Source of the DNA: a virus
Lineage: Duplodnaviria; Heunggongvirae; Uroviricota; Caudoviricetes
Virus record (IMG/VR): IMGVR_UViG_3300029476_000074
Strand: one strand, 5' to 3'
DNA: 5,906 bases
Of the stretch, positions 1,200 through 5,906 are shown piece by piece (position 1 is the stretch's first letter; every line of letters starts with the position of its first letter). The notes under the pieces were generated by a model, which was given only the letters and a program-made list of their open reading frames with translations, ran no database searches and was not told the DNA's origin. Position numbers and translations under genes: made by a program.

Positions 1200-1943
1200 A
1201 TGACAGAGACAGAATCAGCGATTCTGGCGCACGCCCGACGATGTGCGCCAGCGGAGTCGTGCGGCTTCGTGGTGAGAACGCCGGAGGGGGAAAGATATTT
1301 TCCCTGCGTGAATATCTCCGGTGAGTCGGAGGAGTATTTCCGGATGTCTCCGGAAGACTGGCTGCAGGCAGAAATGCAGGGTGAGATTGTGGCGCTGGTC
1401 CACAGCCACCCCGGTGGTCTGCCCTGGCTGAGTGAGGCCGACCGGCGGCTGCAGGTGCAGAGTGATTTGCCGTGGTGGCTGGTCTGCCGGGGGGCGATTC
1501 ATAAGTTCCGCTGTGTGCCGCATCTCACCGGGCGGCGCTTTGAGCACGGGGTGACGGACTGTTACACGCTGTTCCGGGACGCTTACCATCTGGCGGGGAT
1601 TGAGATGCCGGACTTTCATCGTGAGGATGACTGGTGGCGTAACGGCCAGAATCTCTATCTTGATAATCTGGAGGCCACAGGGCTGTATCAGGTGCCGTTG
1701 TCAGCGGCGCAGCCGGGCGATGTGCTGCTGTGCTGCTTTGGTTCATCGGTGCCGAATCATGCCGCTATTTACTGTGGTGACGGCGAGCTGCTGCACCATA
1801 TTCCTGAACAACTGAGTAAACGAGAGAGGTATACCGACAAATGGCAGCGACGCACACACTCCCTCTGGCGTCACCGGGCATGGCGCGCATCTGCCTTTAC
1901 GGGGATTTACAACGATTTGGCCGCCGCATCGACCTTCGTGTGA
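1200..1943 (+). CDS. K: Tail tip assembly protein K (JAB/MPN + NlpC/P60 two-domain protein), 247 aa as the long ORF
   Basis: ORF 1200..1943. JAMM-like motif HSHPGGLPWLSEAD (HxHx7SxxD) at nt 1401-1442. NlpC/P60-like catalytic Cys in GVTDCYTLF (Cys codon 1560-1562) with a downstream His in PNHAAIY. The C-terminal 199 aa starting at MSPEDW (ATG 1344) correspond to the classical lambda K annotation. ATG 1200 lies 5 nt after the L stop, consistent with coupling. Confidence 0.93.
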   Translation: MTETESAILAHARRCAPAESCGFVVRTPEGERYFPCVNISGESEEYFRMSPEDWLQAEMQGEIVALVHSHPGGLPWLSEADRRLQVQSDLPWWLVCRGAIHKFRCVPHLTGRRFEHGVTDCYTLFRDAYHLAGIEMPDFHREDDWWRNGQNLYLDNLEATGLYQVPLSAAQPGDVLLCCFGSSVPNHAAIYCGDGELLHHIPEQLSKRERYTDKWQRRTHSLWRHRAWRASAFTGIYNDLAAASTFV

Positions 1944-2512
1944 AAACGGGGGCTGAAGCCATCCGCGCACTGGCCACACAGCTCCCGGTGTTTCGTCAGA
2001 AACTGAGCGACGGCTGGTATCAGGTACGGATTGCCGGGCGGGACGTCAGCACGTCCGGGTTAACGGCGCAGTTACATGAGACTCTGCCTGATGGCGCTGT
2101 GATTCATATTGTTCCCAGAGTCGCCGGGGCCAAGTCAGGTGGCGTATTCCAGATTGTCCTGGGGGCTGCCGCCATTGCCGGATCATTCTTTACCGCCGGA
2201 GCCACCCTTGCAGCATGGGGGGCAGCCATTGGGGCCGGTGGTATGACCGGCATCCTGTTTTCTCTCGGTGCCAGTATGGTGCTCGGTGGTGTGGCGCAGA
2301 TGCTGGCACCGAAAGCCAGAACTCCCCGTACACAGACAACGGATAACGGCAAACAGAACACCTATTTCTCCTCACTGGATAACATGGTTGCCCAGGGCAA
2401 TGTTCTGCCTGTTCTGTACGGTGAAATGCGCGTGGGGTCACGCGTGGTTTCTCAGGAGATCAGCACGGCAGATGAAGGGGATGGTGGTCAGGTTGTGGTA
2501 ATTGGGCGGTAA
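1841..2512 (+). CDS. I: Tail tip assembly protein I (ubiquitin-like N-terminal domain, Gly/Ala-rich hydrophobic C-terminal region), 223 aa
   Basis: ORF 1841..2512 encodes MAATHTLPLASPGMARICLYGDLQRFGRRIDLRV...GGQVVVIGR, 223 aa, the length of lambda gpI. Overlaps the 3' end of K by 103 nt in a different frame, the arrangement I recall for lambda K/I. Confidence 0.93.
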   Translation: MAATHTLPLASPGMARICLYGDLQRFGRRIDLRVKTGAEAIRALATQLPVFRQKLSDGWYQVRIAGRDVSTSGLTAQLHETLPDGAVIHIVPRVAGAKSGGVFQIVLGAAAIAGSFFTAGATLAAWGAAIGAGGMTGILFSLGASMVLGGVAQMLAPKARTPRTQTTDNGKQNTYFSSLDNMVAQGNVLPVLYGEMRVGSRVVSQEISTADEGDGGQVVVIGR

Positions 2513-2585
2513 TATTATTTTACTCATGTTCTAACTAATTTAATATTTATATCGAACACTGATAATTATTCTATTGGTTAGCTAT
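2513..2585 (+). promoter_or_regulatory. Putative sigma70-type promoter region for the moron gene (exact -35/-10 uncertain)
   Basis: Very AT-rich 70 bp directly upstream of the lipoprotein ORF with several -10-like hexamers (TAATAT 2541-2546, GATAAT 2561-2566) and weak -35-like elements (TTTACT 2518-2523, TTTAAT 2539-2544). No single convincing consensus pair, so low confidence. Confidence 0.25.
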
Positions 2586-2924
2586 ATGAACAAAACGATT
2601 TTATTCTGCACGATTATTGCCTTAACAGGATGTAAATCTTTGGATTACGTAAAATCCGGAAAACCTGTAATGGAAGGTAATTCATTAAAAAATATTGATG
2701 AATTGTCAGGCTGCATATCCAGACAATGGGCTGGTAATGGAACACCTATAACATCCCTTCCTATTGAGAATGGGGTAAGCCTTTTAGTTCCACAGGCTAT
2801 GGGGGGATATGATGTTGTGCTTGATATCAAAAAAGCAGGAAATGGCAGTAGTTTTACTCTTTATGAACGTGTACCAGCATTAACGCCAAAAATTTTTGCT
2901 GATAGTGTTAATGCATGTAAATAA
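2586..2924 (+). CDS. Predicted lipoprotein of unknown function (phage moron gene), about 112 aa precursor
   Basis: ORF in the track starts at TTG 2574; I prefer ATG 2586, giving MNKTILFCTIIALTGC|KSLDYVKSGKPVMEG... This has a basic n-region, a hydrophobic h-region and a lipobox L-T-G-C with Cys at residue 16, the signal peptidase II signature. Stop TAA 2922-2924. No strong Shine-Dalgarno. Codon usage is AT-rich and unlike the neighbouring genes. I do not recognise the protein family. Confidence 0.7.
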   Translation: MNKTILFCTIIALTGCKSLDYVKSGKPVMEGNSLKNIDELSGCISRQWAGNGTPITSLPIENGVSLLVPQAMGGYDVVLDIKKAGNGSSFTLYERVPALTPKIFADSVNACK

Positions 2925-2948
2925 TAGTTAATCCTGCCGTAACTCATG

Positions 2949-2976
2949 AGCCGCCTTTTGGGCGGCTTTGTTGTTT
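2949..2976 (+). terminator. Rho-independent terminator downstream of the moron gene
   Basis: Inverted repeat AGCCGCC (2949-2955) / GGCGGCT (2961-2967) with a 5-nt loop TTTTG, followed by the T-rich tract TTGTTGTTT (2968-2976). Lies 25 nt after the ORF stop and 15 nt before the J start. Confidence 0.6.
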
Positions 2977-2990
2977 ATGGAGTGTGAGGA

Positions 2991-5906
2991 ATGGGTAAAG
3001 GAAGCAGTAAGGGGCATACCCCGCGCGAAGCGAAGGACAACCTGAAGTCCACGCAGCTGCTGAGTGTGATCGATGCCATCAGCGAAGGGCCGATTGAAGG
3101 TCCGGTGGATGGATTAAAAAGCGTGCTGCTGAACAGTACGCCGGTGCTGGATAGCGAAGGGAATACCAACATCGCCGGTGTCACGGTGGTGTTCCGGGCA
3201 GGTGAGCAGGAGCAGACACCGCCGGAGGGATTTGAATCCTCCGGCTCCGAGACGGTGCTGGGTACGGAAGTGAAATATGACACGCCGATCACCCGGACCA
3301 TCACGTCGGCAAACATTGACCGTCTGCGTTTTACTTTCGGCGTGCAGGCACTGGTGGAAACCACCTCAAAGGGTGACCGGAATCCGTCGGAAGTCCGCCT
3401 GCTGGTTCAGATACAACGTAACGGTGGCTGGGTGACGGAAAAAGACATCACCATTAAGGGCAAAACCACGTCGCAGTATCTGGCCTCGGTGGTGGTGGAT
3501 AACCTGCCGCCGCGCCCGTTTAATATCCGGATGCGCAGGATGACGCCGGACAGCACCACAGACCAGTTGCAGAACAAAACGCTCTGGTCGTCATACACCG
3601 AAATCATCGATGTGAAACAGTGCTACCCGAACACGGCACTGGTCGGCGTGCAGGTGGACTCGGAGCAGTTCGGCAGCCAGCAGGTGAGCCGTAATTATCA
3701 TCTTCGCGGGCGCATTCTGCAGGTGCCGTCGAACTATAACCCGCAGACGCGGCAATACAGCGGTATCTGGGACGGAACGTTTAAGCCAGCATACAGCAAC
3801 AACATGGCCTGGTGTCTGTGGGATATGCTGACCCATCCGCGCTACGGCATGGGGAAGCGTCTCGGTGCGGCGGATGTGGACAAATGGGCGCTGTATGTCA
3901 TCGGCCAGAATTGCGACCAGTCGGTGCCGGATGGCTTTGGTGGCACGGAGCCGCGCATCACCTGTAACGCTTACCTGACCACGCAGCGTAAGGCGTGGGA
4001 TGTTCTCAGCGATTTCTGCTCGGCGATGCGCTGTATGCCGGTATGGAACGGGCAGATGCTGACGTTCGTGCAGGACCGACCGTCGGATAAGGTGTGGACC
4101 TATAACCGCAGTAATGTGGTGATGCCGGATGATGGCGCGCCGTTCCGCTACAGCTTCAGCGCCCTGAAAGACCGCCATAATGCCGTTGAGGTGAACTGGA
4201 TTGACCCGGATAACGGCTGGGAGACGGCAACAGAGCTTGTGGAGGATACGCAGGCCATTCTCCGTTACGGTCGTAACGTCACGAAGATGGATGCCTTTGG
4301 CTGTACCAGCCGGGGGCAGGCGCACCGCGCCGGGCTGTGGCTGATTAAAACGGAACTGCTGGAAACGCAGACCGTGGACTTCAGCGTGGGCGCAGAAGGG
4401 CTTCGCCATGTACCGGGCGATGTCATTGAAATCTGCGATGATGACTATGCGGGGATCAGCATCGGTGGTCGCGTACTGGCGGTGAACAGCCAGACCCGGA
4501 CGCTGACGCTCGACCGTGAAATCACGCTGCCATCCTCCGGCACCACGCTGATAAGCCTGGTTGACGGTGAGGGTAATCCGGTCAGTGTGGAGGTCCAGTC
4601 CGTCACCGACGGCGTGAAGGTGAAAGTGAGCCGTGTTCCTGACGGCGTTGCTGAATACAGCGTGTGGGGGCTGAAGCTGCCGACGCTGCGCCAGCGCCTG
4701 TTCCGCTGCGTGAGTATCCGTGAGAACGATGACGGCACGTATGCCATCACCGCCGTGCAGCATGTACCGGAGAAAGAAGCCATCGTGGATAACGGGGCGC
4801 ACTTTGACGGTGACCAGAGCGGCACGGTGAATGGTGTCACGCCGCCAGCGGTGCAGCACCTGACCGCAGAAGTCACCGCAGACAGTGGGGAATATCAGGT
4901 GCTGGCGCGCTGGGACACGCCGAAGGTGGTGAAGGGCGTGAGATTCCTGCTTCGCCTGACCGTGGCAGCGGATGACGGCAGTGAGCGGCTGGTCAGCACG
5001 GCCCGGACGACGGAAACCACATACCGCTTCACGCAACTGGCGCTGGGGAACTACAGGCTGACAGTCCGGGCGGTAAATGCCCGGGGGCAGCAGGGCGATC
5101 CGGCGTCGGTATCGTTCCGGATTGCCGCACCGGCAGCACCGTCGCGGATTGAGCTGACGCCGGGCTATTTTCAGATAACCGCCACGCCGCATCTTGCGGT
5201 TTATGATCCGACGGTACAGTTTGAGTTCTGGTTCTCGGAAAAGCGGATTGCGGATATCAGGCAGGTTGAAACCACAGCACGCTATCTTGGCACGGCGCTG
5301 TACTGGATAGCCGCCAGTATCAATATCAAACCGGGCCATGATTATTATTTTTACATCCGCAGTGTGAACACCGTTGGCAAATCGGCATTTGTGGAGGCTG
5401 TTGGCCAGCCGAGTGATGATGCATCCGGCTATCTGAATTTTTTCAAAGGAGAGATAGGGAAAACCCATCTGGCTCAGGAGTTGTGGACGCAGATTGATAA
5501 CGGTCAGCTTGCGCCTGACCTGGCTGAAATCAGGACGTCCATTACGGGTGTCAGCAATGAAATCACGCAGACCGTCAATAAGAAACTGGAAGACCAGAGT
5601 GCAGCGATCCAGCAGATACAGAAGGTTCAGGTTGATACAAATAATAACCTGAACAGCATGTGGGCTGTGAAGCTGCAGCAGATGCAGGACGGACGCCTTT
5701 ATATCGCGGGTATTGGTGCCGGTATTGAGAACACCCCTGACGGCATGCAGAGTCAGGTGCTGCTGGCGGCGGACAGGATTGCGATGATTAATCCTGCGAA
5801 TGGCAACACAAAGCCGATGTTTGTTGGGCAGGGCGATCAGATATTCATGAACGAAGTGTTCCTGAAATATCTGACGGCTCCCACCATTACCAGCGGCGGT
5901 AATCCT
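2991..5906 (+). CDS. J: Host specificity protein J / central tail fibre (tail tip), N-terminal ~972 aa, 3'-truncated by window edge
   Basis: ATG 2991 preceded by GGAG (2979-2982). The frame stays open to the last base of the window (2916 nt, 972 codons), which is why it is missing from the ORF track. Translation begins [53 protein letters not shown]... and ends ...[30 protein letters not shown], matching lambda gpJ by recollection over most of its length. Confidence 0.95.

What the first reader, a model, noticed from the sequence alone, without database searches (positions are those of the whole stretch)
2586..2924. Small secreted lipoprotein of unrecognised family as candidate exclusion, defence or host-interaction factor
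The ORF has a textbook lipoprotein signal peptide (MNKTILFCTIIALTG-C, Lys at +2 so probably not inner-membrane retained). The mature part is about 97 aa with two further cysteines (SGCIS and the C-terminal NACK) that could form a periplasmic disulfide. It does not resemble the lipoprotein morons I know (Bor, Cor, T5 Llp) or the outer membrane protein Lom. Envelope lipoproteins encoded by prophages commonly act by masking or inactivating phage receptors or by altering the envelope. Its position beside the receptor-binding tail gene J is suggestive, but the function is unknown.
Basis: inference. Interest (0 to 1): 0.75.

Follow-up and report, generated by a model that had tools for sequence, protein, structure and literature searches.

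The report
Prophage tail-operon lipoprotein of unknown function

Summary
Window 2586-2924 (+) encodes a 112-aa protein with a textbook lipobox (LTG-C16, Lys at +2) and two further Cys. The gene is real. It lies in a roughly 430-bp, 36% GC insertion between tail genes I and J (flanks 58% GC). It occurs in 338 of 5426 complete E. coli genomes and shows purifying selection. Homologues are found in Klebsiella, Kluyvera, Enterobacter, Yersinia and Pseudomonas prophages.

The family is PHROG 914 (unknown function). It has no Pfam model, and I found no paper on it. Across 119 diverse members only the three Cys are invariant. The AlphaFold model is confident: a small alpha+beta helix-grip fold with only generic matches (Flpp3, BamC-N). 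It does not resemble Cor, Llp, Rtp45 or Bor.

The family mostly sits between K and I, and sometimes before the tape-measure gene. One allele accompanies at least three J receptor-domain types. The same J domain occurs in many phages without it. Phage mEpX2 carries both it and Cor.

Best guess (about 0.35): a prophage envelope factor that blocks lambda-type tails after receptor recognition, as HK97 gp15 does. A host-fitness lipoprotein role is nearly as likely. Function and expression remain untested.

The parts
2586..2924 (+). Lipoprotein gene (112 aa including signal peptide; stop codon included). It is a member of PHROG 914.
   Evidence: ORF list and sequence. PHROG 914 match at E = 7e-33 over the full length. 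RefSeq CDS WP_001332187.1 in the same frame. Homologues.
2586..2630 (+). Signal peptide (residues 1-15, MNKTILFCTIIALTG), ending in the lipobox LTG|C.
   Evidence: Read directly from the sequence. The lipobox Cys column is invariant in 119 relatives. Nearly all of the family proteins retrieved match a lipobox pattern.
2631..2633 (+). Codon of Cys16, the predicted lipid-modified first residue of the mature protein. It is followed by Lys (+2) and Ser (+3).
   Evidence: GCKSLD is invariant in the close subfamily.
2712..2714 (+). Codon of Cys43, which is invariant. It lies in helix 37-50 of the model.
2916..2918 (+). Codon of Cys111, which is invariant. It lies in the C-terminal helix 103-111 and is the presumed disulfide partner of Cys43.
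   Evidence: The disulfide is an inference; the Cys-Cys distance in the model was not available.
2799..2825 (+). MGGYDVVLD motif (residues 72-80). It is invariant in the enterobacterial subfamily but not in the wider family, which makes it a candidate subfamily-specific interaction surface.
2513..2940 (+). Inserted low-GC segment (about 430 bp) between the stop codon of I and the backbone hairpin. This segment is the moron.
   Evidence: GC is 0.28-0.41 against 0.54-0.61 in the flanks. The gene is 36% GC and the flanks 58%. Alignment with the empty I-J junction of phage vB_EcoS-640R1 defines the boundaries.
2513..2585 (+). AT-rich 73-nt leader upstream of the start codon. It has no consensus sigma-70 promoter and only a weak Shine-Dalgarno sequence.
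   Evidence: The promoter scan found nothing on the + strand. Sequence.
2948..2968 (+). GC-rich hairpin followed by a T-run, 23 nt after the stop codon. It is terminator-like, but it belongs to the I-J backbone and not to the insertion.
   Evidence: dG -14.9. An equivalent hairpin is present at the empty site in 640R1, and one is annotated as a terminator between I and J in N15.
1841..2512 (+). Tail assembly protein I, the upstream neighbour.
   Evidence: Pfam Lambda_tail_I, E = 1e-28.
2991..5906 (+). Tip attachment / host specificity protein J, the downstream neighbour. It runs off the end of the window (first 972 of 1159 aa), so its receptor-binding C-terminus is not in the window.
   Evidence: Pfam J domains. 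Full gene in UTI89.

Best explanation
The gene is a moron: about 430 bp of foreign, AT-rich DNA inserted between tail genes I and J of a lambda-like E. coli prophage.

Its product is exported by Sec, lipidated at Cys16 and, with Lys at +2, sorted by Lol to the inner leaflet of the outer membrane. The 96-residue mature domain begins almost directly at the lipid anchor. It folds into a compact alpha+beta helix-grip module that is probably stapled by a Cys43-Cys111 disulfide. This part is shown or follows directly from established lipoprotein rules (confidence about 0.9).

The function is inferred (confidence about 0.35). The protein probably protects the lysogen, or the infected cell, by interfering with infection by lambda-type siphophage tails at the outer membrane or periplasm. 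It would act at a step that does not depend on which receptor J recognises, for example by hindering tail-tip opening or penetration, or channel formation by ejected tip proteins such as gpI or gpH. It would not work by masking one cognate receptor.

In logic it resembles the HK97 gp15 moron. That is also a tail-operon moron with chromosomal relatives, and it blocks DNA entry without blocking receptors. The difference is that this protein is anchored in the outer membrane and not the inner membrane.
For: Identity:
- ORF, lipobox and Cys pattern.
- The only invariant columns in 119 relatives are the three Cys.
- AF2 model with pLDDT 84 overall and about 90 for the mature domain.
- Low GC and an empty-site comparison.
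- Purifying selection, with all 57 copies intact.
- Present in 338 of 5426 E. coli genomes.

Always inside lambda-type M-L-K-I-J tail modules:
- The close subfamily is found only there, in three different slots: I-J, K-I and T-H.
- The same holds for more distant phage-borne members in E. coli, Klebsiella and Pseudomonas.
- The lipoprotein is 50-59% identical between lineages whose neighbouring tail proteins are only 30-38% identical.

Not tied to the receptor-binding domain:
- At least three J C-terminal types accompany one lipoprotein allele.
- The same receptor domain occurs without the lipoprotein.
- Klebsiella relatives sit beside J proteins of 3100-3367 aa.
- It co-occurs with Cor in mEpX2.

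Signs of an independent transcription unit and a lysogeny role:
- A GC-rich hairpin plus T-run follows the gene in 8 of 10 contexts. It is absent from the empty K-I junction of N15.
- In Pseudomonas phage phiAH14a, a family member plus a second copy of gene I lie downstream of the cI-like repressor on the same strand.
- Among 50,697 phage records, the family was found only in temperate phages.

Precedent:
- HK97 gp15 sits in the T-H slot, is expressed from the prophage, blocks entry and not receptors, and has chromosomal YebO relatives (PMC3594210). This family occupies that same slot in L069-L074.
Against: - There is no experimental or expression evidence.
- No consensus sigma-70 promoter lies upstream of the gene in any of the four contexts scanned. 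Expression from the repressed prophage is therefore unproven.
- In this window the downstream hairpin is a backbone feature, not part of the insertion.
- Association with tail modules may only reflect where insertions are tolerated. Other unrelated genes use the same slots: a small ORF in VT1-Sakai, HNH genes, and other lipoproteins.
- Distant family members are ordinary chromosomal genes in Rhodanobacter and other bacteria. That fits a general envelope function as well as it fits an anti-phage one.
- The fold gives no functional clue.
- No PADLOC defence model matches.
Confidence: 0.35

Rival explanations
1. It is a host-fitness or virulence lipoprotein, a lysogenic-conversion factor in the manner of lambda Bor or Lom. 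It would alter envelope properties such as serum resistance, adhesion, stress tolerance or outer-membrane integrity, and would have no role against phages.
For: - Distant relatives are chromosomal, non-phage genes beside ECF sigma, GGDEF or OmpA-family genes.
- The E. coli copies listed are mainly ExPEC/APEC strains such as UTI89, S88, APEC O1, IHE3034 and NU14.
- It is independent of the J receptor domain and coexists with Cor.
- Tail-region morons with host-fitness roles are well known, for example Lom (PMC3594210).
Against: - The phage-borne branch is strictly confined to lambda-type tail modules across Enterobacteriaceae and Pseudomonas. A generic fitness gene would not be expected to respect that restriction.
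- The same slot is filled by several unrelated lipoprotein families in other phages. That looks like alternative solutions to a tail-related problem.
- No promoter was detected for lysogenic expression.
- The ExPEC bias may only reflect clonal spread of one prophage.
Confidence: 0.25
2. It is a cognate receptor-masking superinfection-exclusion lipoprotein. It would bind the periplasmic face of the outer-membrane protein that this prophage's J uses and distort that protein's surface loops, as Llp does to FhuA, Rtp45 to LptD and Cor to FhuA. This would also protect progeny from adsorbing to debris.
For: - All experimentally characterised small lipoproteins encoded in siphophage tail/RBP regions of E. 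coli phages work this way (PMC9586334; PMC12685063; PMC8594841).
- The gene is adjacent to J in this window.
- The globular domain starts right at the lipid anchor, which places it at the periplasmic face of the outer membrane.
- The subfamily-specific invariant motif MGGYDVVLD could contact a target conserved in Enterobacteriaceae.
Against: - One lipoprotein allele goes with at least three J C-terminal types that are 56-74% identical. Over the last 130 aa, one of them (the L036 type) is about 81% identical to phage 21 J and about 40% identical to lambda and 434 J.
- An identical J receptor domain occurs without the gene in VT1-Sakai, PPompW phages and 640R1.
- Relatives at 52% identity sit beside Klebsiella J proteins of 3100-3367 aa.
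- Most family members are not next to J.
- mEpX2 already has Cor.
- There is no sequence or fold similarity to Cor, Llp or Rtp45, and the mature protein is about 10.5 kDa against about 6-7 kDa for those.
Confidence: 0.15
3. It is a periplasmic inhibitor of a tail-borne cell-wall hydrolase, analogous to T4 Spackle. The target would be the NlpC/P60 peptidase domain of gpK, whose gene lies immediately upstream in most lineages.
For: - K carries JAB and NlpC/P60 domains.
- In most lineages the lipoprotein gene directly follows K.
- Enzyme-inhibitor gene pairs are commonly adjacent. This is general knowledge, not tested here.
Against: - In this window the gene follows I, not K, and in L069-L074 it precedes the tape-measure gene.
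- From established knowledge, gpK is thought to act in the cytoplasm during tip assembly and is not a documented virion component.
- There is no structural similarity to known peptidase inhibitors.
Confidence: 0.05
4. It is a remnant or selfish passenger with no selectable function in E. coli, or an ORF that is not expressed.
For: - No promoter was detected, and the Shine-Dalgarno sequence in this window is weak.
- Databases annotate it only as hypothetical.
Against: - All 57 E. coli copies are intact, with an excess of synonymous changes.
- Length, lipobox and three Cys are conserved over 119 diverse relatives.
- The fold prediction is confident.
- Relatives in the K-I slot have a good Shine-Dalgarno sequence (AAGGAG).
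Confidence: 0.05

Closest known systems
HK97 gp15 moron (superinfection exclusion; YebO-related)
   Same: - It is a small envelope protein encoded by extra, compositionally deviant DNA inside the tail operon of a lambdoid prophage.
- Some members of this family occupy exactly the gp15 slot, between the tail chaperone T and the tape-measure gene.
- It has distant chromosomal, non-phage relatives (PMC3594210).
- Its action is not tied to the receptor.
   Different: - gp15 is an inner-membrane protein with no lipobox. This protein is a lipoprotein predicted to go to the outer membrane.
- There is no sequence relationship: no Pfam hit of any kind.
- The function of gp15 is demonstrated. Here it is only inferred.
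Cor (phi80/N15/HK022/mEp167), T5 Llp and Rtp Rtp45: receptor-blocking superinfection-exclusion lipoproteins
   Same: - All are phage-encoded small lipoproteins with a short tether, encoded in the tail/host-recognition region of siphophages.
- All are expected at the periplasmic face of the outer membrane.
   Different: - No sequence or fold similarity.
- The mature protein is larger (97 aa, against roughly 60 for those) and has an alpha+beta helix-grip fold.
- It is not genetically coupled to a receptor-binding allele.
- It coexists with Cor in mEpX2.
- It was found only in temperate phages.
Lambda Bor / Iss (outer-membrane lipoprotein moron, serum resistance)
   Same: It is a prophage-encoded outer-membrane lipoprotein of about 100 aa, carried as a moron in lambdoid phages of pathogenic E. 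coli.
   Different: - No match to the Lambda_Bor Pfam family.
- Bor lies beside the lysis genes, not in the tail-tip module.
Ltp of Streptococcus phage TP-J34
   Same: It is a prophage lipoprotein that blocks DNA entry by acting on the incoming tail (the tape-measure protein), not on the receptor (PMC3952083 abstract; target from my own knowledge). This is the functional analogy I favour.
   Different: Ltp works in a Gram-positive host, has an unrelated repeat/HTH-like fold and shows no sequence similarity.
Flpp3 (DUF3568) and BamC N-terminal domain
   Different: - Sequence identity is 6-10%.
- None of the 119 family members matches the DUF3568 or any other Pfam model.
- The resemblance is at fold level only and is shared with KA1, DUF302 and Bet v 1-like domains.

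Membership tests
Bacterial lipoprotein (Lgt/LspA/Lnt substrate) | Signal peptide with a positive n-region and a hydrophobic h-region, ending in the lipobox [LVI][ASTVI][GAS]-C | tested here: met
   The sequence is MNKTILFCTIIALTG-C16. The Cys column is invariant in 119 relatives. Nearly all of the family proteins retrieved match a lipobox pattern.
Bacterial lipoprotein (Lgt/LspA/Lnt substrate) | No Lol-avoidance signal (Asp at +2), so the protein is sorted to the outer membrane | tested here: met
   Lys is at +2 and Ser at +3, and CKSLD is invariant in the subfamily. The sorting rule itself comes from established E. coli knowledge.
Bacterial lipoprotein (Lgt/LspA/Lnt substrate) | Globomycin-sensitive processing and acylation | not testable with these tools
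   This needs an experiment.
PHROG 914 (phage protein family, unknown function) | Full-length match to the family HMM | tested here: met
   E = 7.3e-33 over residues 1-112 against profile positions 1-118 of 118. Relatives in Fraca, mEpX2, phiAH14a and D14P also match.
Moron (Juhala/Hendrix definition) | Extra DNA relative to otherwise collinear relatives | tested here: met
   The empty I-J junction in vB_EcoS-640R1 is 60 bp, against 478 bp here. The K-I junction of N15 is empty.
Moron (Juhala/Hendrix definition) | Base composition different from the surrounding genes | tested here: met
   The gene is 36% GC and the flanks 58%. Relatives show the same trend: 39-44% against 50-54%.
Moron (Juhala/Hendrix definition) | Own terminator | tested here: inconclusive
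   A hairpin plus T-run follows the gene in 8 of 10 contexts and is absent from the empty K-I site of N15. In this window, however, the hairpin also exists at the empty I-J site, so it belongs to the backbone.
Moron (Juhala/Hendrix definition) | Own promoter, with expression from the repressed prophage | tested here: inconclusive
   The consensus sigma-70 scan found nothing upstream in the window, L078, L069 or L086. The scan is crude, and no expression data were available.
Cor superinfection exclusion protein | Sequence similarity to Cor (PHROG 1119) | tested here: not met
   The window protein has no hit. The Fraca homologue hits only at E = 0.15, on signal-peptide residues 1-29.
Cor superinfection exclusion protein | Encoded downstream of J and linked to a FhuA-type host-recognition module | tested here: not met
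   The gene lies upstream of J or I. mEpX2 has a separate cor gene downstream of J.
T5 Llp / Rtp45 type receptor-blocking lipoproteins | Sequence or fold similarity to Llp (PDB 8A60_B) or Rtp45 (9RPS) | tested here: not met
T5 Llp / Rtp45 type receptor-blocking lipoproteins | Allele co-varies with the receptor-binding protein or domain | tested here: not met
   One allele is linked to at least three J C-terminal types. The same J C-terminus occurs without the gene.
Lambda Bor / Iss | Match to the Pfam Lambda_Bor family | tested here: not met
   No Pfam family matches at E <= 1. None of the 119 relatives matches either.
DUF3568 / Flpp3 | Match to the Pfam DUF3568 model | tested here: not met
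Known anti-phage defence systems (PADLOC) | Match to any PADLOC model | tested here: not met
   0 families match at E <= 1.

The most novel reading that the evidence does not exclude
PHROG 914 lipoproteins would be a new class of Gram-negative superinfection-exclusion factor. They would sit at the inner face of the outer membrane and block lambda-type tails after receptor binding, for example by capturing the ejected tip proteins gpI or gpH or by preventing tip opening. Protection would then be independent of which receptor the incoming phage uses. This would be an outer-membrane counterpart of HK97 gp15 and of Gram-positive Ltp. The pairing of a family member with an extra copy of gene I next to the repressor of Pseudomonas phage phiAH14a would then mark a two-part, lysogeny-expressed exclusion module.
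Probability: 0.2. Interest if true: 0.7.

Novelty: new member of a known kind. Interest (0 to 1): 0.45.

Why it matters
About 6% of complete E. coli genomes carry this gene, including the main ST95-type ExPEC/APEC reference strains (UTI89, S88, APEC O1, IHE3034). Related prophages in Klebsiella, Enterobacter, Yersinia and Pseudomonas carry it too. It has no Pfam family and no functional annotation, and I found no paper about it.

If it excludes phages independently of their receptor, it would be a compact, portable barrier relevant to phage therapy against ExPEC and Klebsiella. It would also open a route to the poorly understood step at which siphophage tail tips cross the outer membrane.

If it is instead a host-fitness lipoprotein, it is another prophage contribution to ExPEC envelope biology.

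Either way the test is cheap: one 340-bp clone and a phage panel.

The wider observation may be as useful as this one gene. Several unrelated lipoprotein families (PHROGs 914, 890, 2320, 3152) occupy the slots flanking tail gene I.

Tried and rejected
- Direct DNA search of the insertion against 50,697 phage records found no match. The gene is essentially a prophage gene.
- Pfam, NCBIfam and PADLOC gave nothing.
- PDB sequence searches with the single protein and with a 119-sequence profile gave only chance or signal-peptide matches.
- The locus search with the broad alignment failed for lack of conserved stretches. The genome-contig scan returned only one locus.
- The literature searches that looked for this family found no paper on it. 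One search was a background search on Rtp45/LptD.
- The LF82 prophage transcriptome paper, the Tai tail-assembly-interference paper and the NC-SV sRNA paper turned out not to concern this gene.
- Two long proteins in the profile search (P0091 and P0115) are repetitive and were judged spurious.
- I considered modelling a fused LP-gpI complex.
- I considered an o-spanin (Rz1) identity and rejected it. The genomic location is wrong (it is not in the lysis cassette), the protein is too large and folded, and there is no partner i-spanin.
- The antisense ORFs at 2614-2745 and 2645-2830 were judged spurious, because the + strand frame is the conserved one.
Full report
**1. The observation**

The window is a lambda-type tail-tip module. 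It holds M (167-496), L (496-1194), K (1200-1943, with JAB and NlpC/P60 domains) and I (1841-2512). The ORF in question follows, and then J from 2991 to the end of the window.

The ORF runs from ATG 2586 to the stop at 2922-2924 and encodes 112 aa. Its N-terminus is MNKTILFCTIIALTG|CKS..., a positive n-region and a hydrophobic core ending in the lipobox L-T-G-C16, with Lys at +2. RefSeq annotates the same CDS in UTI89 as hypothetical protein WP_001332187.1.

Several results show that the ORF is not a chance reading frame.
- The composition of the segment gives P = 1.3e-4 for 113 stop-free codons. Only 13 of 5000 shuffles reach 112 codons in any frame.
- Among 57 E. coli copies from IMG/VR loci and UTI89 there are 13 nucleotide alleles. 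All are intact, with 10 synonymous and 6 non-synonymous polymorphic sites, which corresponds to a dN/dS of roughly 0.2.
- Proteins of the same length at 50-62% identity occur in Klebsiella, Kluyvera, Enterobacter and Jejubacter.
- No Rfam family or tRNA lies in the window.

**2. The insertion**

GC falls to 0.28-0.41 across 2400-2999, against 0.54-0.61 on either side. The gene is 36% GC and its flanks 58%.

Phage vB_EcoS-640R1 has the same I and J backbone but only 60 bp between them. Aligning the two places the insertion at about 2513-2940.

The terminator-like hairpin at 2948-2968 is also present at that empty site. A hairpin is annotated as a terminator between I and J in N15. In this window the hairpin is therefore a backbone feature that the insertion sits in front of.

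VT1-Sakai carries a different 240-bp insert in the same slot, so the I-J junction is a general insertion site.

No consensus sigma-70 promoter lies in the 73-nt AT-rich leader, and the Shine-Dalgarno sequence is weak.

**3. The family**

Pfam, NCBIfam and PADLOC give nothing. PHROGs gives a full-length match to phrog_914, a family of unknown function (E = 7e-33).

A profile search of 1.84 billion cluster representatives found 125 clusters at E <= 1e-3. Nearly all are 105-125 aa and nearly all have a lipobox. Two long repetitive hits were judged spurious.

In an alignment of 119 members with 21% mean column identity, the only invariant columns are Cys16, Cys43 and Cys111. This is strong evidence for lipidation and for a conserved disulfide. 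None of the 119 members matches any Pfam model. Where members carry a name, it is only 'hypothetical protein' or 'lipoprotein'; the organisms include Yersinia, Shimwellia and Hafnia.

The enterobacterial subfamily has an invariant mature N-terminus, CKSLD, and an invariant MGGYDVVLD motif.

**4. Structure**

AlphaFold2 on a 12-sequence alignment gives mean pLDDT 83.7 and pTM 0.76. Ten-residue block means are 81-96 from residue 21 onward. The order of elements is a short helix 19-24, strand 29-33, helix 37-50, four strands between 56 and 94, and helix 103-111.

The folded domain starts within a few residues of the lipid anchor, so it should sit against the inner face of the outer membrane. Cys43 and Cys111 lie in the two long helices. 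I could not measure their distance in the model.

The fold searches gave no functional clue.
- Foldseek against the PDB has nothing at E <= 1e-3. Flpp3 is top at 5e-3.
- Against viral models the only significant match is a family member from Pseudomonas phage phiAH14a.

The fold is a generic helix-grip alpha+beta module. It is not a phage structural protein and it is not like Llp or Rtp45. The profile search against PDB sequences touches Llp only through the signal peptide (E = 1.3).

**5. Genomic context of relatives**

In E. coli the gene is in 338 of 5426 complete genomes, almost always once and on the chromosome. The listed hits are mostly ExPEC/APEC strains: UTI89, S88, APEC O1, IHE3034 and NU14. 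In UTI89 it lies in a complete lambda-like prophage followed by J, Lom and Stf.

Using tblastn of the window's tail proteins against the fetched loci, plus annotations, the close subfamily is always inside an M-L-K-I-J module. It occupies three different slots.
- I-J: the E. coli type seen in this window.
- K-I: Klebsiella L004-L007, Kluyvera L078, and L067, L068, L076 and L077.
- Between the T-like chaperone gene and the tape-measure gene: L069 and L072-L074.

More distant phage-borne members are also in the K-I slot: Fraca, LMessi, mEpX2, HK140 and P. aeruginosa D14P.

The lipoprotein is 50-59% identical between lineages whose M, L, K, I and J N-terminal proteins are only 30-38% identical. 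It has therefore moved between tail modules, or it is much more constrained than they are.

In the K-I slot the insertion starts about 45 nt before the ATG, replaces the last few K codons and has a good Shine-Dalgarno sequence. It ends with its own hairpin and T-run. The empty K-I junction of N15 has neither feature. Eight of ten contexts have such a hairpin. Consensus promoter scans are negative in all four contexts tried.

Among 50,697 phage records, the family was found only in about eight distinct temperate phages.

Distant members at 20-25% identity are ordinary chromosomal genes, for example in Rhodanobacter beside ECF sigma, GGDEF or OmpA-family genes.

**6.

If this were a cognate receptor blocker like Cor, Llp or Rtp45, it should track the receptor-binding end of J. 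In small siphophages the exclusion genes are encoded with the RBP alleles downstream of gpJ (PMC8594841; PMC12685063; bioRxiv 2026.04.02.716166). It does not track it.

- (a) Among 37 loci with a complete J and a lipoprotein more than 98% identical, the last 250 aa of J fall into at least three real types. There are 25 loci with a 1159-aa or 1131-aa J, 6 with an 1137-aa J and 3 with a 1132-aa or 1160-aa J. These types are 56-74% identical. Two further loci have a different C-terminal module. Over the last 130 aa, one type is 81% identical to phage 21 J and about 40% identical to lambda and 434 J.
- (b) A J C-terminus 97% identical to the UTI89 type occurs in more than 15 phage records, including VT1-Sakai, the PPompW phages and 640R1. 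The lipoprotein DNA has no match anywhere in that collection.
- (c) Klebsiella relatives sit beside J proteins of 3100-3367 aa that carry carbohydrate-binding modules.
- (d) mEpX2 encodes both a PHROG 914 lipoprotein (gp19) and Cor (gp24), with its own terminator, downstream of J.

Receptor masking of the phage's own receptor is therefore disfavoured, though not excluded.

**7. What it most likely does**

What is shown:
- It is a real, selected lipoprotein gene.
- It is carried as extra DNA in tail operons of temperate lambda-type phages of Enterobacteriaceae and Pseudomonas.
- It is independent of the receptor-binding domain.

What is inferred:
- It goes to the outer membrane (the +2 rule).
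- It has a disulfide.
- It acts in the envelope.

The closest precedent in logic is the HK97 gp15 moron. That gene lies between the tail chaperone and tape-measure genes and is expressed from the prophage. It blocks DNA entry without blocking receptors, depends on features of the incoming tail, and has non-phage YebO relatives (PMC3594210). This family shares the slot (in L069-L074), the independence from the receptor and the chromosomal relatives.

Two further observations fit a tail-related envelope role.
- Several unrelated lipoprotein families fill the same slot in front of gene I: phrog_2320 in Fraca and LMessi, phrog_3152 in L067 and phrog_890 in phiAH14a.
- phiAH14a carries, besides its normal tail module, a PHROG 914 gene followed by a second full-length copy of I (79% identical to the tail-module copy). 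This pair lies downstream of the cI-like repressor on the same strand, a position comparable to rexAB in lambda.

I therefore favour an exclusion factor that acts on lambda-type tails after receptor recognition, with confidence of about 0.35. A host-fitness lipoprotein in the manner of Bor or Lom is nearly as likely (0.25), given the chromosomal relatives and the Flpp3/BamC-like fold. Cognate receptor masking gets 0.15, and a Spackle-like inhibitor of gpK gets 0.05. No function, or no expression, gets 0.05. The remainder is unassigned.

**8. Novelty and verdict**

The gene is already in the databases as a hypothetical protein and as PHROG 914. No function is assigned, there is no Pfam family, and I found no paper on it.

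It is a new family within a known kind, prophage-encoded envelope lipoprotein morons. It differs from the characterised examples in fold, in size and in not being coupled to the receptor-binding protein.

It is worth a simple experiment. It is not, on present evidence, surprising to a phage biologist.

Noticed in passing
L079 (VT1-Sakai) 3038-3277, equivalent to the window I-J junction: VT1-Sakai has a different, unrelated insert of about 240 bp in the same I-J slot. It contains a small ORF of about 39 aa (MKINVMELFFRHQKSNAASLLRLQAIAGNVKSFRNFIPS). The junction is therefore a recurrent insertion site.
   Followed up: partly
L002 4725-4994 and L003 4647-4994 (Fraca, LMessi); L067 8406-8855; L091 19239-19661 (phiAH14a p83): Three other unrelated lipoprotein families (phrog_2320, phrog_3152, phrog_890) occupy the same slot in front of tail gene I. 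Sometimes they lie next to the PHROG 914 gene. The Fraca copy of phrog_2320 is annotated without its signal peptide.
   Followed up: partly
L087 6028-6945 (phiAH14a p33-p32) and L091 19717-20310 (p84): Pseudomonas phage phiAH14a has two copies of tail assembly gene I that are 79% identical. One is in the tail module. The other is paired with the PHROG 914 lipoprotein downstream of the cI-like repressor on the same strand, which suggests a lysogeny-expressed LP-I unit.
   Followed up: partly
L067 4063-8911: In one IMG/VR prophage the K-I slot holds an island of about 4.9 kb. It contains antirepressor/KilA-N-like ORFs, an XRE-type HTH gene directly upstream of the lipoprotein, and a second lipoprotein after it.
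   Followed up: no
window 2948-2968; L080 about 3225-3250; L088 4808-4831 (N15): A terminator-like hairpin between I and J is conserved in lambdoid tail operons even without any insertion. It lies in the middle of the late operon, and I do not know what it does there.
   Followed up: partly
window 1841-1943: The longest I ORF overlaps the 3' end of K by about 100 nt. RefSeq starts I later, at about window 1937. Which start is used was not resolved.
   Followed up: no
window 2170-2340 (I residues about 110-165): The middle of protein I is a long Gly/Ala-rich hydrophobic stretch (GGVFQIVLGAAAIAGSFFTAGATLAAWGAAIGAGGMTGILFSLGASMVLGGVAQMLAP). It looks like a membrane-inserting segment, which matters for the idea that ejected gpI could be a target.
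   Followed up: no
window 3591-5468 (- strand): A 625-aa ORF runs antisense to J. It is Arg/Pro/His-rich and lies in a GC-rich coding region, so it is almost certainly a shadow ORF and not a gene.
   Followed up: no
L064-L066 (IMG/VR): A few copies show an apparent frameshift in the lipoprotein gene. In L064 and L065, K is split as well, and in L064 so is J. That points to sequencing errors and not to pseudogenes.
   Followed up: partly
P0019 (ENA metagenome contig, 193 aa): This protein joins the first 38 residues of the lipoprotein to an acyl-carrier-protein domain (PF00550). It is probably an assembly chimera.
   Followed up: no
L091 17140-19180 (phiAH14a p80, p82): Two HNH endonuclease genes are inserted in the L-K and K-I junctions of the phiAH14a tail module. 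This is another sign that these junctions tolerate mobile insertions.
   Followed up: no
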